Both the position numbers and the translations under genes were made by a program. The notes below the pieces were generated by a model. It was not told where the DNA came from. It worked only from the letters and a program-made list of their open reading frames with translations, and made no database searches. From Trypanosoma brucei (Eukaryota), in contig CP000068.1 of NCBI GenBank assembly GCA_000002445.1, positions 608,001-672,000 on the forward strand: 64,000 nucleotides of DNA, given 5' to 3'. Below, piece by piece: positions 8,011-38,719 of the stretch (position 1 is its first letter; each line of letters begins with the position of its first letter).

Positions 8011-8805
8011 ATGACGCAATCGCAATCGCAAGGACATCCACGGGTTGGGCCTGCGCCCCTCTGTATCGATTACCCCACGCAACAGCCCCTTTGCCCAGAG
8101 TTTACGTATACCACTGATATCATCGCGTTAATGGCGCCACCTCGCATAGCCGCTAAGTTTTCACCATGTTTTCGCAAATACAGTTGGGACCCGTATGCGG
8201 TGCTGCTCACAGATCACGATTTAGAACGTGTAAAGAAATCATACAGGCGTGCAACGGCACCTCCCGCCATCGCCTCGTCACCAACGCGGCAACCCCCTCA
8301 GCAAAATCCTGCTGATATGGATATCAATGATAGTCACCATAATCACAATATTGATCATTCGCCATCACGGCTGCCACAGCTTTGCCAACAACAACAACAA
8401 CAACAGGAACAGCAACAACAGGAACAGCAGGAGCAGGAGCAAAGCCTACAACAGCAACATCAACAACTGAAACTACAGCAACAGCAACAGCAGGAGCAAC
8501 AGCAACTAAAGCAGCAAAGCCTCCAACAACAACAACAACAACAACACCAACAGCAGCAGCAGCGACTGAAACGACAATCATTACAACAACATCAACATTA
8601 TCATCAACATCATCATCGTCGATATCACCCGTATGCTCAACTGCATCACGGCGGTGGCCATCAGAGCCGCGGGGTGCATCATCCGTCATGGCATAACCGA
8701 CAGCCGGTGACTTGGAGGGCAATGGGACCCAATCAAGATTCTGAATTCAAATCTGCAGGAGGGCGTTCAGCTGCTCGAGGTTCCAGCGCCCGCTTCAGTC
8801 GCTAA
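8011..8805 (+). CDS. Gln-rich low-complexity hypothetical protein carrying a K-Y-SWDPY motif
   Basis: The track ORF 7726-8805 begins inside an AT-rich microsatellite. The in-frame ATG at 8011 (MTQSQSQGHPRV...) marks where the composition becomes coding-like. The protein has a long poly-Q/E/L tract and the motif FRKYSWDPY, which is shared with the gene at 13052. Confidence 0.5.
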   Translation: MTQSQSQGHPRVGPAPLCIDYPTQQPLCPEFTYTTDIIALMAPPRIAAKFSPCFRKYSWDPYAVLLTDHDLERVKKSYRRATAPPAIASSPTRQPPQQNPADMDINDSHHNHNIDHSPSRLPQLCQQQQQQQEQQQQEQQEQEQSLQQQHQQLKLQQQQQQEQQQLKQQSLQQQQQQQHQQQQQRLKRQSLQQHQHYHQHHHRRYHPYAQLHHGGGHQSRGVHHPSWHNRQPVTWRAMGPNQDSEFKSAGGRSAARGSSARFSR

Positions 8806-19893: not shown

Positions 19894-22058
19894 GATGTTA
19901 TTCGTGTTCCCCTCCCTTTCTGTCCCACTTTCCCTCCTCTCTCTCTTTTTTTTTTTTTACCTCCGGTATTTCTGGTTTTCCGCTTATGTTTTTTCTTTCG
20001 AATTTCACTAAAGTAAACCACAACATCACAGTTATTTGATGTTGAACACCACCACCACCCCTTCCAAAAAAAAAAAAAAAAATCGAAAGCGGAGATAATG
20101 ACGATGAATGCGAGGAGAAGGTGTGATCGACGTTGCGATGGAAATGAATAGGAAAAAAAAAGGGGAACAATGATGTTAAGGAAAAAAAGCAGAAGAGAAA
20201 GAAAATGATGTCCTTCAGAGTGAAAACAACAGCAATAGTGACGATATGATAATAATTAACAAAAACAAGGATGGTGATGGCAATGATGATGTGAGAGAAA
20301 AGGAGAGAGAAAGAGTAGTGGAAATAAAGCGAGAGCCCGTGTACGAAAAAGAAGAGAAAAATTATATATGTATGCGAGAATATGTGCCTGTTTTCCCCCT
20401 ACAAGCTTTTTTTCCTTCTGCGCTTATCACTATTATTCATTTTTTTTATTTTTGCGCCATGGTGGTAGCGGATTTTAGTTAATGAAACGGGAAAAGAATA
20501 TATTGTTGTTTCTTCCGCTCCACCGACCTTACTTTTTTTTCATTTTTTTAAATTATTTTTGAAAATGCCATCGTTCGTTCTTTGATTAATCCGTCTTTTT
20601 TCCCCCGTCGTTTCGTTTGTCTTGTTTTGTTTTTCACTCGGTTTCTGTTTAACTTATTTCGTAGTGCAGGGTGAGGAGGTGGTCTGGGCCAATGAATAAT
20701 AATGACCATGCTAATGATAATAACGACAATACCAATTGGGGCAGTGGAACGCCGCTCCGGGAACATATAGCGAAGGACGAGGGCGGATAAGCGCAAGCAG
20801 AAGCAAAACTAGGGAAGGAACGTGGCGAGGCGGGCATATTCAAAAAAAACACATGAGAGTGCGCACAATGCCGTTTGCACGCATGAGGATACATGCATAT
20901 ATTTTTATATGTATGTTGTTTCACTTAAAATATATATTTACATATACGTATATATTTTTAAAAGAATGCGTGTGTCCCGTCATCTCGTCGTCACACGTAG
21001 CCACCGGCTCGTGGACATGCGAGTGAAAACGGGTGCGGATGAGCATGCATGTGCGGTTGTGCGCGCGGGCGCGACTGCGTATGAATGTTTGCGACCGCCT
21101 GAACATGTTCGCAAATGTGTGTCCGGTGCCGGCGCACATTTGTGTGATATGATCATGGGTGATGGTGCGCGAGCAAAAGCATTCATCCAGCAACATGTAT
21201 GGTGCGTCGGTGGAAATACCGAGTTCCTCCAAGGGAACGTGAGCAGGGTCTCATGTTTTTTGAGGAAACCGGCCCGCCGGCGCCCGCGCTCCGGCGGGTG
21301 CACACTCGCATCATGGGATCACGCTTTAGTGTGCGTTTTTGAATATGCCTGCCACAACCCCGATCCAGTAGTTTTGTCTTTTCCTAAGCGTTGTAGCGTG
21401 CGCGGGGCGGGTCCCGTCATATACACGAGGACGTGCGCCTTCGCGGATGGAAATGGGTGGGGGTTTTGTGTGTGTCGTTTCCTTTAGCGATTAGCATTTG
21501 GTGGGCTTCGCTGAGGATGCAAAACGTCAGCACACCCCCCGCTTATTCCTATCTTGGAATGAGAAGAAAAGCACGCGCGCGTTTCGATCGCGGCCCTTTG
21601 GCGGTTGTTTGCCCTGTATCGGCCCTTCGATGCGATCGTGTCTTGTTCCTTTCACGAAGCACGCCGCTCATCCCCCCTTTGAAATTTGGGCTCAAATCGC
21701 CGTGTCGGTTTCCGGTTCGCGGTAGTCCCTTCTTTTCCCACCCCAAGAGGAGTCCCCAAGCTTTTTACCCCTTTTTAAAATTAAAATAATAATTTTCGGC
21801 CCTGGCGATCCCCGACCCTCGACTTCAGTAATCACCGAGTCCCATCGACCTGCTTTCTTCCACATCAAATTTTGAGCACCCCCCCCCTTTCTGCTGCTTT
21901 TTGCTGATACGCCCCCCCGGCCGCCCGCCGCTTTCTCCTCCGTCTCTTAACATCACCCCCCTCCCCCCATTCCTCCTTTTCTTTCATAGCATAGGTTATG
22001 CCCGCCCGGCCCCGCGCCCTTCCGCCACCACCCCCCCCCCGAACCGGCGCCCGTCACG

Positions 22059-24566
22059 GCCGCCCGACTTGCCACGGAAACATTCCTTCGCAACAGACGT
22101 CTCCCCCCCCCCCCCAACCCGGACACCCGACGGCGACCCCATTGAAACGCGCCCCTCTCGTTCTTACCGGTGAACAAGCTGTCCCCGCTCGGCACTCAAC
22201 CCTTCTGTTGCCCCACCTGCTTTTCTTTCACCTTTCTCGCCAAAAAATAAAATAAAATAAGGGAAAGCCACGCCGCGCGGTCGCGACGAGCGCGTTTTCA
22301 AAAGAAAAAAAGATTAGCTCAGGCGGAACCGTATCTCTCGTTTCGGAGAGGTTCTTTTTTATCATCTTTTAGAGAAAATTCGCCCAACGCCCGAAATCAT
22401 GGCGGGTTTCAATATCGACGGAAGGGTCGGACACCCCGGCCGGCTCTCGGGTCCGCCGGGGCGTGTACCGGTGCCTCAAAGTGGCCACCCGAACCCGGTG
22501 GCGGTTTATTGGCAGGCCGCGCCCTTCCCCGTGACCGCGGCATTCGCTGCCCCCCAACTCGTCGGGCCACCCCCCGTCTTTTTTTACCGAAGGGGGGCAA
22601 ACCACCCGGGTCCCGCCCCCCGACCACCAGCACCACCCCCTCGCCGTCATTTGGGAGTCGGCCCGAGCCCGCCGCCGCCTCGCTTTCGCGAAAACCGCAA
22701 TTTGTTTTCGGCGGGGGAGGTGGTTGGTTTCATTCGGTTGGCCCGGCGATGGGATGAAAAGGTAGCGGGGAGAGGGGCCGCCCATCACGCCCGCGGACCT
22801 CCGAATTTCGAATGGCCGCCGGAACCCGAGGACCCCTGGAAGGTTTTGGAGGATTGGTCGGAAACCCGAGCACGGTGGTGGCGCACCAGTCGGGCGGATC
22901 ATCGGGCACCGCGGCGCCGCCGGCCCTCAGGACCCCGCAGCAAAAAAAAAAATTTAAGACCTTTGGAAAAGGGGGTCGAGGTGCCTCGTCACTGATCCCC
23001 CCTCGCCCACGGTGTTTGAAAAAGCGACGACGCTGCCCGCCCACCCGCATTTTTTAAAAACGCGGTTCTTTTCGAAAACTCTAACATATCCTTTCCTGTT
23101 CGAAAAAACGTGCCGCTGTTCACAAACAGCCGCCACCCCTTTGCTACTCCAAAAAGCGTGAAGCTTTTTTGAATACAGGATATTGTCCCTTTTCCCTTCC
23201 CTTCGAAACAAATGGTGACTGTTCAGCACCGGTCCCCCGCTGCCCGTGTTCGGAAGGGGGCCTCGCCTTGCCTTACCTTGCCTCACCCAGCCCCACCTTG
23301 CCTCACCCAGCCCCACCTTGCCTTGCCTTTAAACGGAATACAAAAAACCTCATTCCCCCCGCACAAAAGTTCGCCCCTGGCGCGGTTAAGAGGTCCGGCG
23401 CAACGCTCCGCTTGCGTGGAGGGGGGCGAAGGTGGCCCGGGTGGAACCCGTCAGATTTTTTCCTTAGGAATTAGCCACGGGGCGGCATCGCCTTTGGGCC
23501 CGGCTACTCGCCGCCGGCAAGGAGAGTGGCCCCGCGACACACCCCCGATGAGGGCGGCTGCGATGACCGCCACGCCCTGGCGACGCCGGCCACCTCCACG
23601 TGGTGCCAGGGTCCAGTACCCCGCATCATCGGGGGAAGCCAAGAGCCAGCAGAGTTCCTTTCATGGGGAACACTGCTGTGCTCTGGCCTCGGCATCATAC
23701 AGCACAGGGATCAGCAGCGTCTTGCTGGGACACCGTTTTTCATTTGTCGGTCCCTGGGTCCGTGCCAGCGTGCCATCAGCAGTATCATCCGCACTAAGAT
23801 GCTGCTGTCCGGTGATGTGGAACTCCAAAAAAAAGGATTGCCAATTGACATCTTTTGGAGAGTCCGGGGTGGGAGGCCTCTCGCCCCATCTGCTGTATTC
23901 CGTTCAAATGCGGAAATACAACAAAAAATTATAGAGGGTGTGTTAGGATGAATGAAAAAGGGAGACTCTGCCACAGTCGCCAGACCGATAGCATCTCAGG
24001 GCTCTACGGTGATGGCTGATGGCCGCGCCAGTGGGGGGAAACTCTCACGAAGGCACGAAGAAAATTTCAAAAAAAAAAAAATGACCGTCACGGTGTTTGC
24101 GGCCGCCAACACGCCCGCGCATGGGTTTTTGGCTGCGTTTTCAAGGAGGATGAAGGGACACACGAGTTGGACGGCGGGGGATCAGGAACCCGCGGCGCCG
24201 GAAAAATGCGTTCGAATGTTTTGTTTGAGGGCGCCAAAGCACGCCTCGGGGGGTCGGGATGGCGGACGCCGATTTGCCCACTGCATCGGCGCTATGGGGA
24301 CGCGTGCTGGGGGCCCTAAGGCGGGTGAAAGTTCTGGGGAAACGGAAAGTTTGGCCTTCCGAAAAATGAAAGACGGCGGCGCCGGCGCCCCGGGTTTGCC
24401 ATAAGAAAACATCGAACCTTTATTTTTCTTTTAACCCCCGCATCATTGAGGGCGTTTCGCCGCACGACACCACCGGGGCGGCGCCGTGTCGGACAAAAAC
24501 CGGGCTAAGGGGGCGAGGCACCCCCATCGCTTTCGTCGAGACCCGGGAACCCCCCTTCCGTACGGC
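22059..24566. repeat. repeat unit 1 (2508 bp); carries an extra 20 bp internal duplication
   Basis: cctcacccagccccaccttg is present twice at 23281-23320 and once in units 2 and 3. This accounts for most of the period difference. Several SNPs and A-run length differences separate unit 1 from units 2 and 3. Confidence 0.9.
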
Positions 24567-27053
24567 GCCGCCCGACTTGCCACGGAAACATTCCTTCGCA
24601 ACAGACGTCTCCCCCCCCCCCCAACCCGGACACCCGACGGCGACCCCATTGAAACGCGCCCCTCTCGTTCTTACCGGTGAACAAGCTGTCCCCGCTCGGC
24701 ACTCAACCCTTCTGTTGCCCCACCTGCTTTTCTTTCACCTTTCTCGCCAAAAAATAAAATAAAATAAGGGAAAGCCACGCCGCGCGGTCGCGACGAGCGC
24801 GTTTTCAAAAGAAAAAAAGATTAGCTCAGGCGGAACCGTATCTCTCGTTTCGGAGAGGTTCTTTTTTATCATCTTTTAGAGAAAATTCGCCCAACGCCCG
24901 AAATCATGGCGGGTTTCAATATCGACGGAAGGGTCGGACACCCCGGCCGGCTCTCGGGTCCGCCGGGGCGTGTACCGGTGCCTCAAAGTGGCCACCCGAA
25001 CCCGGTGGCGGTTTATTGGCAGGCCGCGCCCTTCCCCGTGACCGCGGCATTCGCTGCCCCCCAACTCGTCGGGCCACCCCCCGTCTTTTTTTACCGAAGG
25101 GGGGCAAACCACCCGGGTCCCGCCCCCCGACCACCAGCACCACCCCCTCGCCGTCATTTGGGAGTCGGCCCGAGCCCGCCGCCGCCTCGCTTTCGCGAAA
25201 ACCGCAATTTGTTTTCGGCGGGGGAGGTGGTTGGTTTCATTCGGTTGGCCCGGCGATGGGATGAAAAGGTAGCGGGGAGAGGGGCCGCCCATCACGCCCG
25301 CGGACCTCCGAATTTCGAATGGCCGCCGGAACCCGAGGACCCCTGGAAGGTTTTGGAGGATTGGTCGGAAACCCGAGCACGGTGGTGGCGCACCAGTCGG
25401 GCGGATCATCGGGCACCGCGGCGCCGCCGGCCCTCAGGACCCCGCAGCAAAAAAAAAAATTTAAGACCTTTGGAAAAGGGGGTCGAGGTGCCTCGTCACT
25501 GATCCCCCCTCGCCCACGGTGTTTGAAAAAGCGACGACGCTGCCCGCCCACCCGCATTTTTTAAAAACGCGGTTCTTTTCGAAAACTCTAACATATCCTT
25601 TCCTGTTCGAAAAAACGTGCCGCTGTTCACAAACAGCCGCCACCCCTTTGCTACTCCAAAAAGCGTGAAGCTTTTTTGAATACAGGATATTGTCCCTTTT
25701 CCCTTCCCTTCGAAACAAATGGTGACTGTTCAGCGCCGGTCCCCCGCTGCCCGTGTTCGGAAGGGGGCCTCGCCTTGCCTTACCTTGCCTCACCCAGCCC
25801 CACCTTGCCTTGCCTTTAAACGGAATACAAAAAACCTCATTCCCCCCGCACAAAAGTTCGCCCCTGGCGCGGTTAAGAGGTCCGGCGCAACGCTCCGCTT
25901 GCGTGGAGGGGGGCGAAGGTGGCCCGGGTGGAACCCGTCAGATTTTTTCCTTAGGAATTAGCCACGGGGCGGCATCGCCTTTGGGCCCGGCTACTCGCCG
26001 CCGGCAAGGAGAGTGGCCCCGCGACACACCCCCGATGAGGGCGGCTGCGATGACCGCCACGCCCTGGCGGCGCCGGCCACCTCCACGTGGTGCCAGGGTC
26101 CAGTACCCCGCATCATCGGGGGAAGCCAAGAGCCAGCAGAGTTCCTTTCATGGGGAACACTGCTGTGCTCTGGCCTCGGCATCATACAGCACAGGGATCA
26201 ACGGCGCCTTGCTGGGACACCGTTTTTCATTTGTCGGTCCCTGGGCACGTGCCAGCGTGCCATCAGCAGTATCATCCGCGCTAAGATGCTGCTGTCCGGT
26301 GATGTGGAACTCCAAAAAAAAAGGATTGCCAATTGACATCTTTTGGAGAGTCCGGGGTGGGAGGCTTCTCGCCCCATCTGCTGTATTCCGTTCAACTGCG
26401 GAAATACAACAAAAAATTATAGAGGGTGTGTTAGGATGAATGAAAAAGGGAGACTCTGCCACAGTCGCCAGACCGATAGCATCTCAGGGCTCTACGGTGA
26501 TGGCTGATGGCCGCGCCAGTGGGGGGAAACTCTCACGAAGGCACGAAGAAAATTTCAAAAAAAAAAAATGACCGCCACGGTGTTTGCGGCCGCCAACACG
26601 CCCGCGCATGGGTTTTTGGCTGCGTTTTCAAGGAGGATGAAGGGACACACGAGTTGGACGGCGGGGGATCAGGAACCCGCGGCGCCGGAAAAATGCGTTC
26701 GAATGTTTTGTTTGAGGGCGCCAAAGCACGCCTCGGGGGGTCGGGATGGCGGACGCCGATTTGCCCACTGCATCGGCGCTATGGGGACGCGTGCTGGGGG
26801 CCCTAAGGCGGGTGAAAGTTCTGGGGAAACGGAAAGTTTGGCCTTCCGAAAAATGAAAGACGGCGGCGCCGGCGCCCCGGGTTTGCCATAAGAAAACATC
26901 GAACCTTTATTTTTCTTTTAACCCCCGCATCATTGAGGGCGTTTCGCCGCACGACACCACCGGGGCGGCGCCGTGTCGGACAAAAACCGGGCTAAGGGGG
27001 CGAGGCACCCCCATCGCTTTCGTCGAGACCCGGGAACCCCCCTTCCGTACGGC
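24567..27053. repeat. repeat unit 2 (2487 bp)
   Basis: Aligned by eye to unit 1 and unit 3. It differs from unit 3 at only a handful of positions, for example catcatacagc versus catcgtacagc. Confidence 0.9.
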
Positions 27054-29467
27054 GCCGCCCGACTTGCCACGGAAACATTCCTTCGCAACAGACGTCTCCC
27101 CCCCCCCCCCAACCCGGACACCCGACGGCGACCCCATTGAAACGCGCCCCTCTCGTTCTTACCGGTGAACAAGCTGTCCCCGCTCGGCACTCAACCCTTC
27201 TGTTGCCCCACCTGCTTTTCTTTCACCTTTCTCGCCAAAAAATAAAATAAAATAAGGGAAAGCCACGCCGCGCGGTCGCGACGAGCGCGTTTTCAAAAGA
27301 AAAAAAGATTAGCTCAGGCGGAACCGTATCTCTCGTTTCGGAGAGGTTCTTTTTTATCATCTTTTAGAGAAAATTCGCCCAACGCCCGAAATCATGGCGG
27401 GTTTCAATATCGACGGAAGGGTCGGACACCCCGGCCGGCTCTCGGGTCCGCCGGGGCGTGTACCGGTGCCTCAAAGTGGCCACCCGAACCCGGTGGCGGT
27501 TTATTGGCAGGCCGCGCCCTTCCCCGTGACCGCGGCATTCGCTGCCCCCCAACTCGTCGGGCCACCCCCCGTCTTTTTTTACCGAAGGGGGGCAAACCAC
27601 CCGGGTCCCGCCCCCCGACCACCAGCACCACCCCCTCGCCGTCATTTGGGAGTCGGCCCGAGCCCGCCGCCGCCTCGCTTTCGCGAAAACCGCAATTTGT
27701 TTTCGGCGGGGGAGGTGGTTGGTTTCATTCGGTTGGCCCGGCGATGGGATGAAAAGGTAGCGGGGAGAGGGGCCGCCCATCACGCCCGCGGACCTCCGAA
27801 TTTCGAATGGCCGCCGGAACCCGAGGACCCCTGGAAGGTTTTGGAGGATTGGTCGGAAACCCGAGCACGGTGGTGGCGCACCAGTCGGGCGGATCATCGG
27901 GCACCGCGGCGCCGCCGGCCCTCAGGACCCCGCAGCAAAAAAAAAAATTTAAGACCTTTGGAAAAGGGGGTCGAGGTGCCTCGTCACTGATCCCCCCTCG
28001 CCCACGGTGTTTGAAAAAGCGACGACGCTGCCCGCCCACCCGCATTTTTTAAAAACGCGGTTCTTTTCGAAAACTCTAACATATCCTTTCCTGTTCGAAA
28101 AAACGTGCCGCTGTTCACAAACAGCCGCCACCCCTTTGCTACTCCAAAAAGCGTGAAGCTTTTTTGAATACAGGATATTGTCCCTTTTCCCTTCCCTTCG
28201 AAACAAATGGTGACTGTTCAGCGCCGGTCCCCCGCTGCCCGTGTTCGGAAGGGGGCCTCGCCTTGCCTTACCTTGCCTCACCCAGCCCCACCTTGCCTTG
28301 CCTTTAAACGGAATACAAAAAACCTCATTCCCCCCGCACAAAAGTTCGCCCCTGGCGCGGTTAAGAGGTCCGGCGCAACGCTCCGCTTGCGTGGAGGGGG
28401 GCGAAGGTGGCCCGGGTGGAACCCGTCAGATTTTTTCCTTAGGAATTAGCCACGGGGCGGCATCGCCTTTGGGCCCGGCTACTCGCCGCCGGCAAGGAGA
28501 GTGGCCCCGCGACACACCCCCGATGAGGGCGGCTGCGATGACCGCCACGCCCTGGCGGCGCCGGCCACCTCCACGTGGTGCCAGGGTCCAGTACCCCGCA
28601 TCATCGGGGGAAGCCAAGAGCCAGCAGAGTTCCTTTCATGGGGAACACTGCTGTGCTCTGGCCTCGGCATCGTACAGCACAGGGATCAACGGCGTCTTGC
28701 TGGGACACCGTTTTTCATTTGTCGGTCCCTGGGCACGTGCCAGCGTGCCATCAGCAGTATCATCCGCGCTAAGATGCTGCTGTCCGGTGATGTGGAACTC
28801 CAAAAAAAAAGGATTGCCAATTGACATCTTTTGGAGAGTCCGGGGTGGGAGGCTTCTCGCCCCATCTGCTGTATTCCGTTCAACTGCGGAAATACAACAA
28901 AAAATTATAGAGGGTGTGTTAGGATGAATGAAAAAGGGAGACTCTGCCACAGTCGCCAGACCGATAGCATCTCAGGGCTCTACGGTGATGGCTGATGGCC
29001 GCGCCAGTGGGGGGAAACTCTCACGAAGGCACGAAGAAAATTTCAAAAAAAAAAAATGACCGCCACGGTGTTTGCGGCCGCCAACACGCCCGCGCATGGG
29101 TTTTTGGCTGCGTTTTCAAGGAGGATGAAGGGACACACGAGTTGGACGGCGGGGGATCAGGAACCCGCGGCGCCGGAAAAATGCGTTCGAATGTTTTGTT
29201 TGAGGGCGCCAAAGCACGCCTCGGGGGGTCGGGATGGCGGACGCCGATTTGCCCACTGCATCGGCGCTATGGGGACGCGTGCTGGGGGCCCTAAGGCGGG
29301 TGAAAGTTCTGGGGAAACGGAAAGTTTGGCCTTCCGAAAAATGAAAGACGGCGGCGCCGGCGCCCCGGGTTTGCCATAAGAAAACATCGAACCTTTATTT
29401 TTCTTTTAACCCCCGCATCATTGAGGGCGTTTCGCCGCACGACACCACCGGGGCGGCGCCGTGTCGG
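27054..29467. repeat. repeat unit 3, truncated (2414 bp)
   Basis: Identity with unit 2 ends after gtgtcgg at 29467. Unique sequence follows (tggtgaaatgttagtgggg...). Confidence 0.9.
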
Positions 29468-32400
29468 TGGTGAAATGTTAGTGGGGCGTTTAGCGCGTGC
29501 CAAGTGGGGTGAGGTTATCCAATTTGGAAAGGTGCATACCTGGTGGGGTGGGGTTGGCGATAGGTAGTCCTCGGAGGGTCTCGTTGTCCGCATCAGTCGT
29601 TGCGTATGATGGTCTTTTTGCGCAATTTCATTGTGAAATTGTCGTCGTTGGTCTTGTTTATGGAATTGCTGAAGTGTTCGGTAAATGCCCTAATTGTCTC
29701 CTGTTGTTGGTGGTGGTGGGGAGGGAAGATTCGACTCTCCCTTTTTCCCAAGCCCCCACAATAATTTACGACGGATGATGTAATCTTTTACTGGAAGTGG
29801 GGCTGTCGCCGAAAGCTTTGTCCTAACACCCCTCAATTTGTTCGCATTCCCTCTTGTCCTCGCCTTGCTTCTTGCGGTGGTGTGTGTTATGTAGGTTTCT
29901 GAACGCTACGGTTTCAAACAGCCGCATTTCCGTTCAAACATGTTTAGTGTCGGATAATTTCCGACACCGCATATCTGTTTCCTTAGCTTCTCCACTCTAA
30001 ATGTCCGGTTTAAAATATACTTTTATACTTAGCCATTGAACTTCTCTGCTGCGTTTCTGATTCTTCATGCTCCTCCACTGGTTTGTGGCCTTTGGTAGTG
30101 GGAATTTTTGAGGGAAAGTAACACCAACTCCCGTAACGTCGTCGCTATGGAATTCAGGCCTGTGGTTGCTATGTCGCTGGATTAGCGCTACGGTAACGAA
30201 AAAGCACGATGCCCCATTTTTTAATCCACATTGCTCAAATCTTCCCACATGCTCACGGGGATGTGAAGGAGACGGACATAGAAGACTTTTTATCGTTCTT
30301 TCCCAAATTTTAACCAAATTTCCTCCTCCACCAATTATTGAAGATCCTTTGGAAGAGACCCCCCTCCAGCCCTTTACATCACCCAATTTTCTTGGAAACT
30401 TCTTGCTTGATTCTCTGACGAGGAGCATCCTCTACCGAGATAAGTTTCGCCTCCTCCATTGCCAACAAACACAAGCGTCCCGGGGACTATCGGAAAGCGT
30501 TGATATTCTTGTTGGATTAATAAAGCTGAAAAAAAAAAGCCCAACCTTCCTGCGACAAGCCCTGCTGTCCCTACGGCCGTGTATCCAATGTATCTCAACC
30601 TTTTCAACTCTCCTCTTCACTTTATTCCCCACGCGCTTCAAAAATATCGTAATTCCTTTGTGAAAGGCTCGGATATTAACGTCCTCCTCCTTTCTTCTAA
30701 CCCTCAAAATTCTCAACTCCATCAACTTGACAGTACCTTCACTCTCTCACTTTCTCTGTTTCGCATTTCGTTTCCGCATGGGTGAAGGCGTACAGCGATT
30801 TCGACCCTTTTTTGCCGCACCAAAAAGTGCGTGTTCACCGTCGCTAAAACTCAACCTTTCGCCGTCTACGGCCACAGAACTTCCAAAGAGAAGGAACACA
30901 GCCACCGACACTCTCGTATCCGCATATGAAATACGCGTGTTTCCGCGGAGTCGAGGGGAAAAGCCGTGACAGCCATTTTAGGGAGTACGCGAAGGGTGGG
31001 GCGGCTTCAACGAGAATGGATATTCTCCTTTGTTGACTGTTATTTTCTGCTTATTGGGCAACACCGGGGTGGAAGTGATGACGATTGATGGGAGAAGGGA
31101 AAGTGATACGAACAGGAACGTTTATATTTAACTTTCCCCGAATAACATGGCTAGGAAGATGGGCTGAACCGCGTCGATGAGACGTACCAATCGGGGCGCC
31201 AGGAGACCCACGTAGAAATGCGAGCATGGATGCGGGTGTGACCGTGGTGTGGGGCTTTTGCTCTGGGGAGGTGAAGGAACTGCGCGAAACTGCCAGGAGT
31301 TCGCCTCGTCCTCCCAGCTGTTGCCTGCGTGAGGGAAGTTTTTATGGCCAACTGAAATGGAGAGTCATAACCACATTCTATTTGGCGAATGAGCACAATA
31401 ATGGCAGGGATTCGTTTAGGACAACAGCGGTGACGAGAGCGGGGAGCATACTCACGGCGCGAATGTTAGTTGGGAAGCTTCAATATTCTATGGAAGAACG
31501 GCAAAAAGTACAGTTGTCTGTTTTCTGCCAACAAAGGTTCACCACCAGCCCCACCGCACAACTAATGATGCGAGCAAGGTGTGTGCAAATACAAAATAGG
31601 AACTGAACGGTGGGAATTACACCATTTTGCGCATGGACTATTGGTGAACACTTGAAAACATCATTTGGGGACAACCCTCTACCGTTACAAAGTCTAAAGG
31701 GGAAAAAGCAAAGAAACGCAACGCGACCGCGTTGTGACACAAGTTCCATGTGCGTTGAAAGTTGAATCTGGAAAATCGGCTCTGTCAAGCACCGGTGACG
31801 AGCACACGGCGATGGAAGTAAAGGAACTGGCAACCATTCGAAGTCGGAAATGTCAAGGTTCACTTGTTCTCTCTTGCATGTTTCGCGGTGAGCGGGCTCC
31901 AAGGAGAAATGAGACTATTGGACGCAACGTATTAGCCAACCTTGAAGGTGAGAGACGCACAACAACGGGGAACATTGGGACATTTTCAGTTCGCACACCC
32001 ATTAACACCCAGCACGCACCCTCTGTGGCTAGTTGAAGGATGGGTAGATACGCACAGTTTCTTAAACGCAAACTCCGCCGTCTTCCTCATTCGAAACCGT
32101 TGACGGCAATCGACCTCATTCACCACACTTCCAATAACGCAGAGTTTTTATTGCGGGAAAGATCAAGCACCTTCAGGTTGCACCTTCTTCCTCCTTCAAT
32201 ACCACCAATGCGCATCGGCGATTTCCCTGCTGCCCACGCGCTGTTCCCAGGTTTGTGCATTCGCGACGGCGTCGCCTGCTGTCGCCACGATGCGCACGAA
32301 ACCATTTGGCGGAAGCACACCCTCAATGTCACTTCCCCTTTCCCCTGCGAATTCTCACTACACGCACAGGACGACGGTGCCATCGATCCGACACTAATCA

Positions 32401-33496
32401 AAACGGGGAAACGGAGCTGCCCACTAGGTCGCTTCTTCACCCACGGAAATTTCGAAAACCCTGGCAGATTCCCGCAGCCCCACAAAAATACCTAATAAGG
32501 TGCTGAGTTTCTGGTCCCATTCATGGGCAAACATTTTGGGTGGCATTAGTAAGGTATGGGGAATGAATGATTAGTAACAGTATGGGAGGTGCCGGAACAC
32601 TTCCTATTTTCGACGCCGCGTCCACAACCTTTGCCAATGGTTCAGTTTCGATCCCAAGGTTTTGGGGTATTTAGGAGGAGCCGTCCCGGTTACACGGCTG
32701 GGCACATCCGTCGCCCCACCGAGGGTGCAAGTCTAATTTCCCCACTCAGGGTTTTTCAGAGTGGGAGATTCGATCAAATAGGAGAGTGTCGGCACCCCAA
32801 CCCCGGTGCGTGGCACTTTTCCTTCCCTTCCTGACCGCACGCTTGTCCGGCAGCTGTTAAATAAACTCGTCGGGGCTCATCAAAGTAACCCGTTCCCCTT
32901 GGACAGAAGCGTAGTCGGTCCCCTTTTTAGATTGTGCTCGTGCGCGCCGCCACGTTGAATCGCACTTCGCCACACGAGGTTCGCCTCCTACGTGTTGTTG
33001 TTCTCTCCCGCAGCGCGAGTCAGCATGCACTGCTGGGGGCACGTTTCTCCAATGTCTTCGTCCTCGCACCAAGGGGTGGGGAGCGTTTCACCATTGCGTG
33101 AAAACTGACCTTCCGCCAAAAACCTCTACACATTAACATCTTCATGAGGGCTTCCGGTCATAACCGCCCGCCCACCCGAAACGCTGAGAAGGGATTGGGA
33201 TCGAGCATATCTCTGGACCGAGGGTCGATTCTGGTGCACTCTGCCCTTAAATATGTAGAAAAAAAAAACGCGCACAAAATAAAATTAGCAAAGTTGGCGT
33301 CGCACGAACCGTTTCCGTGACATTATTTCGACATCGGCGCGCATCACTGCGCAGTTTATTCCGCACGGAGAAAAACAAGGAGGAGGAAGCATGCGAAAAG
33401 CCATCGGCTCGCTGCGCTGTTGCAATGTGAGTTATGGCAAACACCAACGTGCACGTATAGAGGATCGAAAGGGACATGCAATACCGGTTTGTTCAT

Positions 33497-36106
33497 TTAA
33501 CCTTCGCGGCGCCGGACTACGGCAAAAGACGGCCTTCCATGAGAACAGACGCTGTACTGGCCCACGGCCCTCAATGAATCAACTAACAGTTTTGCGTGCT
33601 CATCCTTGATGCGGTCCCCAAACATTATGGCACCGCGGCAAGAGCGAGTGACGAAGAACTGCAATACAGCCGATGGTATTACTCTGAATTCGTGGTGGCG
33701 CCGGTGTCGTTCACAATTATCGCCCTCCGGGGTGTTCGTGGCGCGGAGGGCGGAAACATGTGATGCAGGGAAAACTGCTGCAATCTCTTCCAGCGTTTGG
33801 CGAAGAGCACAAACGGTGTCTAGCACAAGCCGGTGCCCCTCCAAAGTGAGACAGGGCCATTGTGTAATGGTATCAAAGAGTTTCCTCGGACATGGGGTGT
33901 CCGGAAAATCGATGGTAGCTTCTGGAAAGCAAGCCAAATTTGGTTGCGGTGTGTTGTGTGAGAAGCGCCAGCCCCAACGCTTGAGAGCACCCTCATAAGC
34001 AGCAACGCAATGCCGCATGTCATGAGGTATTTTTACGGGGAAGGTTGTTAAAGACGGTTGCGGCTCCACATACGACTCTGCGTGGGCCAGGAAGTATTCG
34101 AGGCGCAAGCGCTCATGAATAGCGTGCTGATCTGTGATGAACAACTTGGGGGGGATAGGCGAATGTCGACTTTCGGTTGCTGTTGCTCGTGCGGATGGGA
34201 GCCGCTGTTCATTGCACTCTGTCGACGCAGTGTCGTTCAATCCCGCTGCATCGCCCGTGTCAAGCAAGAGAAACTTACGATCCCACTGCGCCAAAAAATG
34301 ATTACCACGAAACGGACAAATAATCGGCTCGTTCTCGTCCGGAGCTTCCCCTCCCCTCCAAACAACGGGGCAACGGAATATCCGGGGCACAATGCACGAC
34401 GGTTTCGGTGCAACTGGCATGGCGGTACGGGCCCGCGGGAGGGTATCAGCCGAGGGCACTGGCTTCATCAACGTATATGGACAGAAGGGCGTCCGGCGGG
34501 GGACCGAGGCAGCGGCGGCATTGATTCCCCCGATTGCGCGACTTGTTGCCGGGACGGAAACTGTGGACGCGAGCTGTCTGGCCAAAAATGACACTCGCAC
34601 CCCAGTGGCCACTGCATTGTGAGACTCTTTACCTTCGGTTTTTGTGAGAACTTTTCTGACGGTGGGGAGGTCATCTTCATCCGAGCCGCGTTTGGGGTTA
34701 TTCCCGTTTGCTCTATGGGGAATCCGACCGACACCTGGAACGTGCTGCTGCACGACCGCCTGAAACATCCGTTTGAGCTGGGCATCCCTTCCCTCCAACA
34801 GCTTCCCGTCCACGAAGACAAATAGGGGATGCAGTGATTTAGGGAGCGTTGCCAAATGACGGTACACGCGGTGCCGTTCATCAACAACGTAACATTCACC
34901 GGAGACCGGGTCCGCGGACAAAATAAGTACGGAACCAAGGCAATTGTAAGCGTGTCTGCAGAGACCGGTACCGACGTGCGTTTCACAATGCGGCGCATGA
35001 TACACCATAGCAAACTTGGCACGTGCTACAACAACTTCTCGAAGGCACAAAGTTTCCGCGTTGTTTCCAAGTCCCAACGCCACGGCCAACTGGCTGAGGT
35101 GCGGCAGGAAAGCTTGCAACAAACGGTAAACGGTAGAAAGGGTTTCCGATTCCCCACCTGCGTGGGCGTACTCGCGCTTCCGTTTGACCAACGAATCTAC
35201 CCCCGCCCCATCGCCCGATCTTGAAGCCCCTATGAACACTACACTGGCTGTATCGTATGCTGCTCTTCCCCCCTCGGCGATGACATCGCTTAGGCGAAGG
35301 TACACTGAGGTGGCCCGACGCCCCCCTCCCTGTGGTAAGAGATAAAAAGGTGCCAAGATCCGCTCCGCGGCCACGCGATACGCAACCATAACCACTGCCT
35401 GCCGTTCGCTTCGCATCCGATTGTTGAAACCCCCGCGTGATTGGAGTGCAATGCGGCGTCGCACAGGCATGTTGCAGAAGAGGCCGATAACCTCACACTG
35501 TAACTTGATCAGTGAGGAACATTTGGCGATGCGGTCGGCACACGAACATCGACACCACTGTTCAGCTCGTTCTCCAATGGGGATAAGAACTTCCGACAAA
35601 ACGTCTTTCCCTTTCAGTGGTGAACAAGAGGTCCAGCGACCTTCGTAGAGCACGCATGCGTGATGCGGGGGCGAGGGGACTCCAGCACGCGAGCGCTCTG
35701 CTAGAACTTCGACATTAACTCGCAACTTAACCTCTTGACTTACCACTGTCAAATGCGCGAGGGAAGCGGCATCGATTGCGTCGTCGCCCTCGAGCGATAT
35801 TTGTTTAACATTTTCGACTCTACTACAGCATGGGGGGAGCTCAAACAGCAGATCCAGCAGAAAGTTTAGGTCGCGCGGGTCCGCCACAACCCGAATGTGA
35901 CGCGCCACACTCCCTACACCGAGCAAGCGAAGGAATTGATACGCAGCTTCCACAGCAACAGCGAACGTCGGCAAATAGTGCGCAGCGCGTACTCTCGCTG
36001 CGTCAAATGCACCCAATGGCTCAATGGTGGTACATATACCGCGTTCCGGTGTGCATGCAGACGGAGGAAATGGGGATCCTCCGCGAAATTTCGTTTCCAT
36101 CAGCAT
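33497..36106 (-). CDS. MLH3: MutL-family mismatch-repair/crossover endonuclease, MLH3-like (C-terminal endonuclease domain); the N-terminal ATPase is not recognisable
   Basis: 869 aa ORF. The metal-binding endonuclease motif DQHAIHERLRLE matches the MutL DQHA(X)2E(X)4E motif and closely resembles human MLH3 DQHAAHERIRLE. Downstream, SCRGAIMFGD matches MLH3 ACHGAIKFND, and the C-terminal CSHGRPSF matches the MutL CxHGRP motif. Confidence 0.75.
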   Translation of the reverse strand: MLMETKFRGGSPFPPSACTPERGICTTIEPLGAFDAARVRAAHYLPTFAVAVEAAYQFLRLLGVGSVARHIRVVADPRDLNFLLDLLFELPPCCSRVENVKQISLEGDDAIDAASLAHLTVVSQEVKLRVNVEVLAERSRAGVPSPPHHACVLYEGRWTSCSPLKGKDVLSEVLIPIGERAEQWCRCSCADRIAKCSSLIKLQCEVIGLFCNMPVRRRIALQSRGGFNNRMRSERQAVVMVAYRVAAERILAPFYLLPQGGGRRATSVYLRLSDVIAEGGRAAYDTASVVFIGASRSGDGAGVDSLVKRKREYAHAGGESETLSTVYRLLQAFLPHLSQLAVALGLGNNAETLCLREVVVARAKFAMVYHAPHCETHVGTGLCRHAYNCLGSVLILSADPVSGECYVVDERHRVYRHLATLPKSLHPLFVFVDGKLLEGRDAQLKRMFQAVVQQHVPGVGRIPHRANGNNPKRGSDEDDLPTVRKVLTKTEGKESHNAVATGVRVSFLARQLASTVSVPATSRAIGGINAAAASVPRRTPFCPYTLMKPVPSADTLPRARTAMPVAPKPSCIVPRIFRCPVVWRGGEAPDENEPIICPFRGNHFLAQWDRKFLLLDTGDAAGLNDTASTECNEQRLPSARATATESRHSPIPPKLFITDQHAIHERLRLEYFLAHAESYVEPQPSLTTFPVKIPHDMRHCVAAYEGALKRWGWRFSHNTPQPNLACFPEATIDFPDTPCPRKLFDTITQWPCLTLEGHRLVLDTVCALRQTLEEIAAVFPASHVSALRATNTPEGDNCERHRRHHEFRVIPSAVLQFFVTRSCRGAIMFGDRIKDEHAKLLVDSLRAVGQYSVCSHGRPSFAVVRRREG

Positions 36107-37465
36107 GCTATCCTGTAATAATGTGCCTGGGGATGGAATTTAACAGTGAAATTGGGGTGAGAATGCGAGTACAAACACCAAGGCGGAACGATTACTTATT
36201 TAGGAGGCAGAAGGAGCAAGTCATCCGGTGATGTGACCCTTCCCCCTATTAACCCTTCACCGCTTTCATTCCCAGTAGGGGAAGGATTGTGCCGGTAGCA
36301 GCTTCACGCCGACCACACTTTCGCACTCACCCACTAAAAACTCCATATACTGAAGGGGTGCGGGGCTGATTGAAAAAAATCGCTATTGCCCCCATATCGC
36401 AGTAATGCGTTCCGGAACAGTTTTACTAGAGAAAAATCTAATATCGATAATACCACGCCGAACTCTAGCGAAAACAATAATCATAAAACACGGCTCGACC
36501 ACCGCAACGCGCGGCCCGACGCTCCGCCAAGAGGGGTGCAAGTTCCCAGGAGACGAACGGGGCCCAGGAACCACCGGAACAAATGGAAAGCCCACCCCCC
36601 AAATATCCAATGTAGCCCAAGCTCCCCCAAACTACATGGATACGCGTTTCCTCGGCGACCAATCATGCGTCCACCCCGGCGTCCGCCTTGAGGCGTGGGT
36701 CTTGATCACGAGGCTCGCCTGGCAGTTTAGCCAGCGCTGCGGGATCCTTGTTCTCCCAGCTTCCGGGAAAGAAAAAACGGACACCGAAGATGGTGAGGAA
36801 ACCCGTTCCCCTCAGTGTCAGAGAATGAAAACAACGCTTTGGTACGTGTGACAAGTGATCCTTTTGGTAAAACACGAAGGAGAGGGCGGTCGTGGCGTTT
36901 TGTCTGCTGCGACCCGGGCCCCCTCGCCTGTCTCGAACTGTGTCGGGCTTGGGAAGGAGGAAGGGCCAAATGAAGCGAGACGACCCAATTTGTTAGCGGG
37001 TTCTTCTGGGGTTGGCCAGATGATGTTTCTGGTCCAAGTCGCGCAACCACAGTGGCATCAATGCTGTGAGCCTTGCTTTAGACAGTTTGTCAACGATTGG
37101 CACGTGTTAGATCGGATCAGGTACGGCAGATACAGCGTTTTTCCTAGGGGCTAGTATCTCATCTTCCTAGAATGCCCCAATTTGTCGCAGCCGTCTACAG
37201 AGGGTAGGCTCTCACCAAGGGTTTTAACGGGGTGGATTGAGGAAGGAGTTTGAGCCCAAATGCAAAAAAGCAGAGGATGTGAGGTAGGGATGGATTTCTA
37301 CGGAGAGTAGGGAACCGAAGGAAGACGACCTGCAACGGTAAGCATTTGTTGCTTCGCTGAGTATAACAATCAAAGCGCAGAAAACGTTTGGAAAAGAGGT
37401 GAAGCGCAATGTTGCGCAGTTTGCCCGCGCTCCGTTCACTCGCGTCGGTCGGCTACCCATGCCCT

Positions 37466-38719
37466 TCAACCGCCGTCGTGGCCCCGTCTCTTGCGCCGCC
37501 GATCGTTTTCCCTTAGCTGCAATTCATCAAAGTGGCGCTCCGCCACCTCATCGGCCGAGGGCCCCACATCATCCTCTTTGAAAGCCAGAGTTGCTGGGGG
37601 AGCCACGCCATCACTCTCACCATCTCCCCGTTCCCTCAGCTCCCGCTCCTTCCGCCTCGTTCGCGCTATGTTCAACTTTTTCTTCAGTCTTTCTGCCTCA
37701 TGCTCCGCTTCTTCCACGCTGTCAAAAAGCCCCGTACGGTTAAGCAAGCGGTGTAGACGGACGTTGCATTCGTAATCGAGCGCCTTCTTTTGGGTCTGCC
37801 ACATATGGCGCCGCTCTTCCACATCAACGCCTGTAAAGGCGAGTCGATACTCATGAACTTCGGCAGTGCACGTCGCCCCATGTTTGCCGTGACTCGGCGG
37901 GTAGTCCTGAATGCGAAAGAGCGCGCGCATGGGCGCCGTGTGGTTCACCAGAATGCTTTTGCACAAGCTCGTTATGCTTATGCCCAACCAGGTGGGTGCT
38001 ACATGTGGTGGGAGAAAGCCAGCAAAACTTGTGACAAACTGCGCGGAGAGGGTAATGACTGTAAAAACACCCCACGCTCCAGTCACATATCCCTTTCCTC
38101 GCCGAATCCAGGCGTCCAATCCGTCACTGAAGCCCATGCGTCGCTGCAAGTGGTCCCGTATGCTGATGAGTGTGAGGGTGGCAGCGAAACAAAGAGTGGG
38201 GTCAACCACTGTGCCCATTAGTCGGAATGACAGAGGAGATGTAACGGAAACGACGGCGAGGTGGTCACTGAGTTGTTGCGCGGGAGAACAGAAACTGTAC
38301 CACGTCATCAAAACTGCGACAGCATGGGGAAGGACAAGGCGAACGTTATCAACATGATGGCTACGAAATATGCGATTACGATCATTTTTTAGTTTCTGCG
38401 CCGCAACCTTCTTCTCCCAAAAAATAGCACGCGGGTGATCAACGATGGTTTTGTACTGCTCGTGTGCCTCCTGCAACTCGGGAAGCGCACACGCCGCGCG
38501 GGCAACGCAGCGGTCACCGTATATGCTGGCTGCGAGAGAAATGAATCGAAACACGACACCGCCAACCAATAACACACCGAACACATCGTGTATACTCAAG
38601 GCGTTCGCCGCGAAGAGAGCTAAGTTAGCCAGAATAGTAGACGTTGTTCCTATGCGACGCCTCACAGTGCAGCGAAACATTTGTAATCCACTATTCGACG
38701 CGCCCCGTGAGTTGTCCAC
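37466..38719 (-). CDS. hypothetical multi-pass membrane protein with a charged/coiled-coil C-terminus
   Basis: 417 aa ORF. It has several hydrophobic segments of 20-23 aa (LANLALFAANALSI..., AVAVLMTWYSF..., AWGVFTVITLSAQFVTSFAGFL, WLGISITSLC) and a Lys/Arg/Glu-rich tail. Same strand as its neighbours. Confidence 0.5.
   Translation of the reverse strand: MDNSRGASNSGLQMFRCTVRRRIGTTSTILANLALFAANALSIHDVFGVLLVGGVVFRFISLAASIYGDRCVARAACALPELQEAHEQYKTIVDHPRAIFWEKKVAAQKLKNDRNRIFRSHHVDNVRLVLPHAVAVLMTWYSFCSPAQQLSDHLAVVSVTSPLSFRLMGTVVDPTLCFAATLTLISIRDHLQRRMGFSDGLDAWIRRGKGYVTGAWGVFTVITLSAQFVTSFAGFLPPHVAPTWLGISITSLCKSILVNHTAPMRALFRIQDYPPSHGKHGATCTAEVHEYRLAFTGVDVEERRHMWQTQKKALDYECNVRLHRLLNRTGLFDSVEEAEHEAERLKKKLNIARTRRKERELRERGDGESDGVAPPATLAFKEDDVGPSADEVAERHFDELQLRENDRRRKRRGHDGG

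What the first reader, a model, noticed from the sequence alone, without database searches (positions are those of the whole stretch)
33497..36106. MLH3-type MutL endonuclease (meiotic crossover resolvase family) with an unrecognisable ATPase half, placed as the terminal gene of its cluster
The C-terminal third carries the full MutL endonuclease signature, and specifically the MLH3 flavour of it: DQHAIHERLRLE against human MLH3 DQHAAHERIRLE; SCRGAIMFGD against ACHGAIKFND; CSHGRPSF against CAHGRPSM.

By eye I cannot find the GHKL ATPase motifs (ELVENSxDA, DNGxGI, GFRGEAL) in the N-terminal ~500 aa. Either the ATPase domain is extremely diverged, or lost, or the gene start is mis-called.

MLH3 homologues are part of the meiotic ZMM/MutL-gamma pathway. 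A clear MLH3 in a trypanosome would bear on the meiosis toolkit of these parasites. The gene also sits directly beside the strand-switch region.
Basis: partly seen in the sequence, partly recalled or inferred. Interest (0 to 1): 0.65.

Follow-up and report, generated by a model that had tools for sequence, protein, structure and literature searches.

The report
Trypanosome MLH3 with a dead ATPase domain
This gene is the Trypanosoma brucei copy of MLH3, the DNA-nicking enzyme used by other organisms to make meiotic crossovers; it was already listed as such in 2008, but its ATP-using front half keeps the usual shape while lacking every residue needed to use ATP.

Summary
The 869-aa ORF at 33497-36106 (- strand) is real. 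It is 100% identical to T. b. brucei TREU927 XP_844876.1, which is Tb927.5.2020. The C-terminal domain is an intact MutL endonuclease. All metal-site motifs are invariant in 14 kinetoplastid orthologues. The family profile hits the yeast MLH3 C-terminal domain at E 1e-14, against about 1e-4 for PMS1 and bacterial MutL.

The gene is the last one of its transcription unit and faces a 12-kb convergent strand-switch region.

The MLH3 identity is not new: Malik et al. 2008 list Tb927.5.2020 as Mlh3 by reciprocal BLAST. I did not find the degenerate ATPase described anywhere. A meiotic role is inferred, not shown.

The parts
33497..36106 (-). Complete ORF, 869 aa plus stop. It is Tb927.5.2020 (XP_844876.1 / AAZ11317.1 / UniProt Q57ZS1), the T. 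brucei MLH3 orthologue.
   Evidence: 100% identical to the TREU927 protein; flanked by XP_844875.1 = Tb927.5.2010 and XP_844877.1; the GMPR gene Tb927.5.2080 is XP_844882.1.
35438..36016 (-). aa 31-223: GHKL (Bergerat) ATPase-like subdomain, catalytically degenerate.
35924..36025 (-). aa 28-61, IEPLGAFDAARVRAAHYLPTFAVAVEAAYQFLRL: the remnant of the MutL N-terminal strap and motif I. The catalytic Glu position is A54, the Mg-binding Asn position is F58 and the Asp of NSxDA is L61.
   Evidence: hhalign column mapping. The same columns hold no E, N or D in any of the 14 orthologues.
35453..35497 (-). aa 204-218, CEVIGLFCNMPVRRR: the retained 'V.dLFyN.PVRrk' motif at the end of the GHKL subdomain. 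It is the only N-terminal motif still recognisable by sequence.
   Evidence: The N-terminal profile hits Aquifex MutL and yeast PMS1 N-terminal domains through this motif. V206, G208, P214 and R216 are nearly invariant.
34739..35437 (-). aa 224-456: transducer-like second half of the MutL N-terminal domain.
34322..34738 (-). aa 457-595: predicted disordered, basic linker (pI 10.35) that contains an invariant PRRTP motif (aa 536-540).
   Evidence: pLDDT below 50 over aa 457-612, composition, invariant R538 and T539.
33500..34321 (-). aa 596-869: MutL C-terminal dimerisation and endonuclease domain, MLH3 type.
34097..34132 (-). DQHAIHERLRLE, the DQHA(X)2E(X)4E metal-binding endonuclease motif.
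   Evidence: D, Q, H, A, E and E are invariant in 14 orthologues.
33614..33643 (-). SCRGAIMFGD, the counterpart of the ACR motif.
   Evidence: It aligns to 'ACRSAVMFGD' of yeast MLH3.
33524..33547 (-). CSHGRPSF, the counterpart of the C(P/N)HGRP motif.
   Evidence: It aligns to 'CAHGRPSM' of yeast MLH3.
21488..33496 (.). Convergent strand-switch region between Tb927.5.2010 (+ strand, ends 21487) and the MLH3 gene (- strand, ends 33497). It holds no convincing ORF, tRNA or Rfam RNA, and it contains three copies of a 2.49-kb GC-rich repeat.

Best explanation
The ORF encodes the T. brucei orthologue of MLH3 (Tb927.5.2020), the nuclease subunit of the MutL-gamma (MLH1-MLH3) heterodimer.

Shown here:
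1. The C-terminal domain (aa ~600-869) has the MutL endonuclease fold. Every known metal-binding motif is intact and invariant across kinetoplastids, and it is most similar to MLH3.
2. The N-terminal ~450 aa keep the MutL GHKL-plus-transducer fold. The residues that bind and hydrolyse ATP are lost in T. brucei (Glu to A54, Asn to F58, Asp to L61, DxG to L86-L87-F88, and no GFRGEAL lid) and in every kinetoplastid orthologue examined.
3. A disordered basic linker of about 140 aa joins the two halves.
4. The gene start is correct.

Inferred:
- The protein dimerises with MLH1 through its C-terminal domain and nicks DNA.
- Its main job is biased resolution of double Holliday junctions into class I crossovers, together with MSH4-MSH5, during meiosis in the tsetse salivary gland. 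It may have a minor mismatch-repair role as well.
- Because its own ATP site is dead, any nucleotide-driven clamp cycle must be supplied by MLH1 alone. The MLH3 N-terminal domain would then act as a structural, DNA-binding or partner-binding scaffold.
For: Identity and locus. Malik et al. 2008 Table S1.3 lists T. brucei Mlh3 = Tb927.5.2020.

C-terminal domain:
- PDB phmmer gives yeast MLH3 6shx_B at E 1.6e-5, against PMS1 at 0.43.
- The 14-sequence family profile gives MLH3 at 1.1e-14, B. subtilis MutL at 2.2e-4 and PMS1 at 6.4e-4, with no MLH1 hit.
- The endonuclease residues are invariant.
- Most of the top 150 relatives that carry the motif have CAHGRP; about six have CPHGRP.

N-terminal domain:
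- hhalign gives 96% probability, E 4.9e-9, co-linear over 214 columns.
- The weak sequence-profile hits to the PDB are also MutL and PMS1 N-terminal domains.
- The ATP-site columns hold no E, N, D or G in any of the 14 orthologues.
- N-terminal identity of 32-38% among Trypanosoma species shows continued constraint.

Start codon: and the shared N-terminus.

A separate MLH1 and PMS1 exist in T. brucei (PMC7176904; Malik Table 2), as do MSH4, MSH5 and MER3.
Against: - No experimental or expression evidence ties this gene to meiosis. It is absent from the held supplements of the T. brucei sexual-stage single-cell study.
- I made no phylogenetic tree, so orthology rests on best-hit logic, motif flavour and a reciprocal BLAST from 2008.
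- In yeast, mlh3-N35A is null for both crossing over and mismatch repair, and E31A is defective (PMC3538346). A functional MutL-gamma whose MLH3 cannot bind ATP therefore departs from the best-studied model.
- Loss of ATP binding is inferred from residue identities and a predicted fold. It was not measured.
- Pfam MutL_C is below its gathering threshold (20.9 against 25 bits).
Confidence: 0.8

Rival explanations
1. It is an MLH3-type nuclease, but its main role in trypanosomes is somatic rather than meiotic. Candidate roles are insertion/deletion mismatch repair with MSH2-MSH3, control of repeat instability, or recombination and repair.
For: In yeast, MLH3 also acts in mismatch repair with Msh2-Msh3 (PMC3538346). 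The gene is conserved in all Trypanosoma and Leishmania-like orthologues recovered, whatever the frequency of sex in those lineages. It does not appear among the sexual-stage marker genes in the held supplements.
Against: T. brucei keeps the whole class I crossover set, MSH4, MSH5 and MER3 (Malik Table 2), for which MutL-gamma is the expected nuclease. Trypanosome mismatch-repair studies account for that pathway with MLH1 and PMS1. Absence from marker lists is weak evidence for a gene with low expression.
Confidence: 0.2
2. It is the PMS1/PMS2-type (MutL-alpha) mismatch-repair endonuclease, or an unassignable kinetoplastid-specific MutL paralogue, rather than MLH3.
Against: The sequence profile prefers MLH3 by ten orders of magnitude. 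The motif flavour is C(S/A)HGRP plus MFGD, as in MLH3, and not CPHGRP plus MIG as in PMS1. T. brucei has a separate canonical PMS1. Reciprocal BLAST in Malik 2008 returned Mlh3.
Confidence: 0.05
3. The N-terminal domain still binds a nucleotide through non-canonical residues, so the protein is a working but highly diverged ATPase.
For: The fold, including the transducer subdomain, is retained and under constraint. The hhalign mapping has low confidence outside the first 65 columns.
Against: All four motif positions are hydrophobic or variable, and none is conserved as an acidic, amide or glycine residue across 14 orthologues. There is no glycine-rich lid anywhere in the region.
Confidence: 0.1
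4. The gene is a decaying relic, expressed or not, with no function.
For: The ATPase motifs are lost. It is annotated only as 'hypothetical protein, conserved'. It sits at the very end of a transcription unit.
Against: The full-length ORF is intact in T. brucei subspecies, T. theileri, T. grayi, T. vivax and the longer Leishmania-like orthologues. The nuclease catalytic residues are invariant. The nine intra-T. brucei substitutions all lie outside the C-terminal catalytic core.
Confidence: 0.03

Closest known systems
MLH3 of yeast, mammals and plants (MutL-gamma nuclease subunit; PDB 6shx/6rmn chain B)
   Same: The domain order is the same: MutL N-terminal fold, disordered linker, then C-terminal dimerisation and endonuclease domain. 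It has DQHA(X)2E(X)4E, the (A/S)CR..MFGD motif and C(A/S)HGRPS. It is the best sequence and structure match. The organism also has the MSH4, MSH5 and MER3 partners.
   Different: All GHKL ATP-binding and hydrolysis residues are replaced, whereas yeast Mlh3 needs N35 and E31. The motif is CSHGRP rather than CAHGRP. The N-terminal half is about 100 aa longer because of insertions. Pfam cannot detect the N-terminal domains.
PMS1 (yeast) / PMS2 (human), the MutL-alpha endonuclease subunit (PDB 4e4w/4fmn chain B, 3h4l)
   Different: The sequence profile match is ten orders of magnitude weaker than to MLH3. PMS1 has CPHGRP and a working ATPase. T. brucei has its own PMS1 elsewhere.
Bacterial endonuclease-proficient MutL (B. 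subtilis, Aquifex; PDB 9n2k, 3gab, 5b42)
   Different: Bacterial MutL is a homodimer with active ATPase sites, and it has no long basic linker.
Yeast Mlh2 / human PMS1 (MutL-beta accessory subunit)
   Same: It is another MutL paralogue that lacks one of the family's two catalytic activities. This point rests on my own knowledge and was not tested here.
   Different: It is the mirror image. Mlh2/hPMS1 lack the endonuclease motifs, whereas this protein keeps the endonuclease and has lost the ATPase.

Membership tests
MutL/MLH/PMS superfamily | C-terminal MutL dimerisation domain (Pfam MutL_C fold) | tested here: met
MutL/MLH/PMS superfamily | N-terminal GHKL plus transducer fold | tested here: met
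MutL/MLH/PMS superfamily | GHKL ATP-binding motifs I-III (E..N..DA, DxGxG, GFRGEAL) | tested here: not met
   There is no Pfam HATPase_c hit and no regex match. The aligned positions are A54, F58, L61 and L86-L87-F88, and they are not conserved as E, N, D or G in any of the 14 orthologues.
Endonuclease-proficient MutL homologues (MLH3, PMS1/PMS2, B. subtilis-type MutL) | DQHA(X)2E(X)4E motif | tested here: met
   DQHAIHERLRLE at aa 659-670, with invariant D, Q, H, A, E and E.
Endonuclease-proficient MutL homologues (MLH3, PMS1/PMS2, B. subtilis-type MutL) | ACR-type Cys-Arg motif and C(P/N/A)HGRP motif (Zn ligands) | tested here: met
   S822-C823-R824 and C854-S855-H856-G857-R858-P859. C, R, C, H, G and R are invariant.
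Endonuclease-proficient MutL homologues (MLH3, PMS1/PMS2, B. subtilis-type MutL) | FXR motif, and actual nicking activity | not tested
   I did not map the FXR motif. Nuclease activity needs biochemistry.
MLH3 orthologous group | Closer to MLH3 than to PMS1, MLH1 or MutL by sequence | tested here: met
   PDB E-values: MLH3 1.1e-14, B. subtilis MutL 2.2e-4, PMS1 6.4e-4, no MLH1 hit. The single sequence gives 1.6e-5 against 0.43. Most of the top 150 relatives that carry the motif are CAHGRP type. Reciprocal BLAST is reported in Malik 2008.
MLH3 orthologous group | Monophyly with MLH3 in a family-wide phylogeny | not tested
MLH3 orthologous group | Heterodimer with MLH1; interaction with MSH4-MSH5; role in class I crossovers | not testable with these tools
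   MLH1, MSH4 and MSH5 are reported in the genome but lie outside the window. No interaction or phenotype data were found.
MLH3 orthologous group | Functional ATP-binding site, as required in yeast Mlh3 (N35, E31) | tested here: not met
   against PMC3538346. This sets the protein apart as a variant. It does not remove it from the orthologous group.

The most novel reading that the evidence does not exclude
Kinetoplastids, and probably the related unidentified protists behind the short 'SRSCRG/CSHGRP' proteins, would run a MutL-gamma nuclease whose MLH3 subunit is a natural pseudo-ATPase. Either the MLH3 ATP cycle that is essential in yeast is dispensable for crossover resolution when MLH1 supplies it alone, or the enzyme has been rewired so that it is activated by partners or by its basic linker instead of by nucleotide.
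Probability: 0.45. Interest if true: 0.55.

Novelty: new variant of a known kind. Interest (0 to 1): 0.36.

Why it matters
1. Annotation. Tb927.5.2020 and its orthologues are still called 'hypothetical protein' or 'MutL C-terminal dimerisation domain-containing protein'. Recent trypanosome mismatch-repair and sex literature lists only MLH1 and PMS1 as MutL homologues. The evidence here justifies naming it MLH3. With MSH4, MSH5 and MER3, that name fills in the nuclease of the class I crossover pathway, the central step of meiotic recombination in a parasite whose sexual cycle is hard to study.

2. Mechanism. How ATP use by each MutL-gamma subunit relates to nicking and crossover bias is still open, and yeast genetics says Mlh3 ATP binding is essential. 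A whole lineage whose MLH3 keeps the nuclease site invariant but has lost the ATP site is a natural separation-of-function allele. It makes the question testable by complementation, chimeras and biochemistry with TbMLH1-TbMLH3.

Tried and rejected
- Word-indexed homologue searches returned only the protein itself, both with the single sequence and with the 14-sequence alignment. Low-complexity inserts probably swamped the candidate list. The exhaustive HMMER search was needed.
- Pfam and NCBIfam cannot see the N-terminal domains in this protein or in 9 orthologues.
- A mis-called start or an upstream frameshift is rejected. All three - strand frames of 36107-37465 are full of stops, with an in-frame stop 14 codons upstream of the ATG. 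The next annotated gene starts at 38680.
- I looked for tRNA, snRNA or other Rfam RNAs at the strand switch and found none. The permissive scan gave one chance-level lncRNA hit at E 0.85.
- I tested the idea that, as a cluster-terminal gene, it is silenced by base J / H3.V early termination. Tb927.5.2010, 2020 and 2030 do not occur in the held supplements of two such studies. The idea is unsupported but not excluded.
- I looked for evidence of expression in sexual stages. There is none in the held supplements of the single-cell study, and no MLH or MSH4/5 mention in its main text.
- The AFDB Foldseek library was unavailable.
- One comparison of the Kelch ORF with the target was uninformative.
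- I did not attempt a tree, because no independently labelled reference sets were available.
Full report
**Observation**

The ORF listing returns an ATG-initiated 869-aa ORF at exactly 33497..36106 on the - strand. Its product is 100% identical to T. brucei brucei TREU927 XP_844876.1 / AAZ11317.1 / Q57ZS1, which lies on the 1.608-Mb chromosome 5 record. It differs by one residue from the T. equiperdum protein.

Exact look-ups of the neighbouring ORFs give these identities:
- 13076-14158 (+) is 'hypothetical protein Tb927.5.2000' (XP_844874.1).
- 20909-21484 (+) is 'Tb927.5.2010' (XP_844875.1).
- On the - strand, the genes upstream of the target run XP_844877.1 (37469-38680), XP_844878.1, a methyltransferase, a Myb/CDC5-like protein (XP_844880.1), mt-LAF8 (XP_844881.1) and GMP reductase (XP_844882.1).

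GMP reductase is Tb927.5.2080 according to PMC4701174. The target is therefore Tb927.5.2020.

**Is it more than chance?**

An exhaustive HMMER search of 1.84 billion representatives finds 205 proteins at E <= 1e-3. These include:
- Full-length orthologues in T. theileri, T. grayi and T. vivax (800-866 aa, 36-41% identity).
- Longer proteins of 1000-1475 aa that align over the whole length and look Leishmania-like.

In a 14-sequence alignment with only 23-39% identity to T. brucei, D659, Q660, H661, A662, E665, E670, S822, C823, R824, C854, H856, G857 and R858 are invariant. This is strong purifying selection on the MutL endonuclease metal site.

**Which MutL paralogue?**

- Pfam sees only a sub-threshold MutL_C match (20.9 bits against a 25-bit cut-off).
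- Against all PDB sequences, the single protein hits the yeast MLH3 C-terminal domain best (6shx_B, E 1.6e-5), then B. subtilis MutL (5e-5) and PMS1 (0.43).
- The family profile sharpens this to MLH3 1.1e-14, B. subtilis MutL 2.2e-4 and PMS1 6.4e-4, with no MLH1 hit.
- In a regex census of the 150 best relatives, most of those that carry the C-terminal motif have (Q)CAHGRP(S/T), together with S(K/R)ACR(G/S)AIMFGD where that motif was matched. This is the form aligned in yeast MLH3. About six carry the PMS1/MutL-type CPHGRP.
- T. brucei has separate MLH1 and PMS1 genes (PMC7176904; Malik et al. 2008 Table 2).

I conclude that this is the MLH3 orthologue. I built no phylogenetic tree, and the structural preference over PMS1 is marginal.

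**The N-terminal half**

No HATPase_c or DNA_mis_repair domain is detected in this protein or in nine orthologues, and a regex search finds no GHKL motif.

The gene start is nevertheless right. The 1.36 kb upstream is full of stops in all three frames, with an in-frame stop 14 codons before the ATG. A pyrimidine-rich tract followed by AG dinucleotides lies just upstream. All orthologues begin with the same block, I-x-x-L-(x)3-D/E-A-x-x-(I/L)-R-A-x-H-x-(F/L)-P-(S/T)-(F/L), which corresponds to the extreme N-terminus of canonical MutL proteins.

Three independent lines show that the fold is kept:
2. An hhalign comparison of the kinetoplastid N-terminal profile with 18 canonical MLH3/PMS1-type N-termini (taken hits that have all three GHKL motifs) gives 96% probability, E 4.9e-9. 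With relaxed settings it is co-linear over 214 columns.
3. The plain HMM of the N-terminal alignment has MutL and PMS1 N-terminal domains as its top PDB hits, although these are not significant (E 0.14 and 0.95). They come through the retained 'V.GLF.N.PVR' motif at the expected position.

The same alignment shows what is lost:
- The general-base Glu of motif I aligns with A54.
- The Mg-binding Asn aligns with F58.
- The Asp of NSxDA aligns with L61.
- The DDG of the DxGxG motif aligns with L86-L87-F88.
- There is no GFRGEAL lid.

Across the 14 orthologues these columns read AGGAGARKTRTTAQ, FFFLFVVIAVA-VV, LSSSLQPQPPPSPP, LLLLLSRRRRRRRR, LTRASFTQSVCTRA and FSAGALCVVSVGVT, so no ATP-site residue survives in any lineage.

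The domain is still constrained. Identity among Trypanosoma species is 32-36% in the GHKL part and 26-38% in the transducer part, against 41-45% in the C-terminal domain and 25-34% in the linker. The domain is therefore best described as a pseudo-GHKL scaffold.

**Linker**

Residues 457-~600 are predicted to be disordered and are basic (pI 10.35). They carry an invariant PRRTP motif. By analogy with yeast MutL-gamma, where the ATPase and linker regions bind DNA (title and abstract of PMC5448812, listed), a role in DNA or partner binding is plausible but untested.

**Genomic setting**

All ORFs of at least 200 aa from about 62 kb down to 33.5 kb are on the - strand. The annotated genes to the left are on the + strand: a Kelch protein at 3407-5356, then the protein at 7801-8802 (+) (XP_844873.1), Tb927.5.2000 and Tb927.5.2010. 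The MLH3 gene is therefore the last gene of its polycistronic unit.

It faces a 12-kb convergent strand-switch region (21488-33496). This region has no convincing ORF, tRNA or Rfam RNA. It does contain three copies, 98-100% identical, of a 2.49-kb unit with about 60% GC.

I found no evidence that this position regulates the gene.

**Mechanism (inferred)**

The protein most likely pairs with MLH1 through its C-terminal domain to form MutL-gamma. It would nick DNA with the invariant DQHA/SCR/CSHGRP metal site. With MSH4-MSH5 and MER3, which are reported in the genome, it would resolve recombination intermediates into crossovers during meiosis in the tsetse salivary gland, possibly with a minor mismatch-repair role.

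The unusual point is that in yeast mlh3-N35A is null for both crossing over and mismatch repair, and mlh3-E31A is defective (PMC3538346). The kinetoplastid enzyme must therefore either rely on the MLH1 ATPase alone or be activated differently.

Several other proteins in the global search also lack canonical GHKL motifs while sharing the kinetoplastid-type SRSCRG/CSHGRP motifs: P0022, P0029, P0034, P0035, P0039, P0043 and P0045 (570-830 aa, from metagenomes and raw-read assemblies). P0029 sits in a run of four same-strand, closely spaced genes, an arrangement like that of kinetoplastids. The loss may therefore be older than the trypanosomatids.

**Novelty**

The MLH3 assignment is already in print. 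Malik et al. 2008 (PMC2488364) score Mlh3 as 'B' (reciprocal BLAST only) for Trypanosoma, and Table S1.3 names Tb927.5.2020.

The assignment has not propagated:
- NCBI and UniProt call the protein hypothetical.
- The trypanosome mismatch-repair literature names only MLH1 and PMS1.
- Recent trypanosomatid sex papers I checked do not mention MLH3.
- Nothing else in the searchable library discusses it.

I found no description of the retained-fold, dead-site N-terminal domain. I therefore rate the finding as a new variant of a known kind, of moderate interest. The identification is solid but not new. The pseudo-ATPase is a real and testable oddity. The meiotic role is inference.

Noticed in passing
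window 22059-29336: Three tandem copies of a 2.49-kb unit, 98-100% identical and about 60% GC in an otherwise 30-55% GC region. It has no convincing ORF and no Rfam or tRNA hit, and it sits inside the convergent strand-switch region next to the MLH3 gene. In T. equiperdum the genes on the two sides are on different contigs, consistent with an assembly break at this repeat.
   Followed up: partly
window 1-21500: This stretch is unusually AT-rich (29-38% GC in most 2-kb bins) with alternating AT skew. Its only annotated genes besides a Kelch protein (3407-5356) are XP_844873.1 (7801-8802), annotated 'hypothetical protein, conserved', and two 'T. brucei spp.-specific' hypothetical proteins, Tb927.5.2000 (13076-14158) and Tb927.5.2010 (20909-21484). 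None of the three has a Pfam domain.
   Followed up: partly
window 34487-34501 (aa 536-540 of the ORF): A PRRTP motif in the disordered basic linker, invariant at R538 and T539 and nearly so at P540, across kinetoplastid orthologues that otherwise share no linker sequence. It could be a docking or phosphorylation (Thr-Pro) site.
   Followed up: no
P0029 contig (JGI metagenome 3300059473, 10,962 bp) compared with window 3407-5356: In an environmental contig with kinetoplastid-like same-strand gene packing, a 631-aa Kelch protein lies two genes upstream of the MLH3-like gene. In T. brucei a 649-aa Kelch protein lies across the strand-switch region from MLH3. This may be an ancient linkage broken by an inversion or an insertion.
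   Followed up: no
proteins P0022, P0029, P0034, P0035, P0039, P0043, P0045; also P0046/47/80/107/126 and P0056/103/114/135: Several groups of MLH3-like proteins from unidentified organisms also lack some or all GHKL motifs while keeping the endonuclease motifs. Degeneration of the MLH3 ATPase may be recurrent among protists.
   Followed up: partly
window 33497-36106, variants among T. brucei subspecies: The nine amino-acid differences between TREU927, T. b. gambiense, T. equiperdum and other T. brucei-group sequences of this cluster (positions 13, 29, 99, 140, 242, 292, 545, 553, 635) all fall in the N-terminal half, the linker or the start of the C-terminal domain (635). None falls in the catalytic core (aa 654-869). 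The sample is too small for a test.
   Followed up: no
window 45292-47193 (-) and 37469-38680 (-): The upstream neighbours include mt-LAF8, a mitoribosome assembly factor present in PDB 7AOI chain XH, and a 404-aa protein that one source names '60Kd inner membrane protein'.
   Followed up: no
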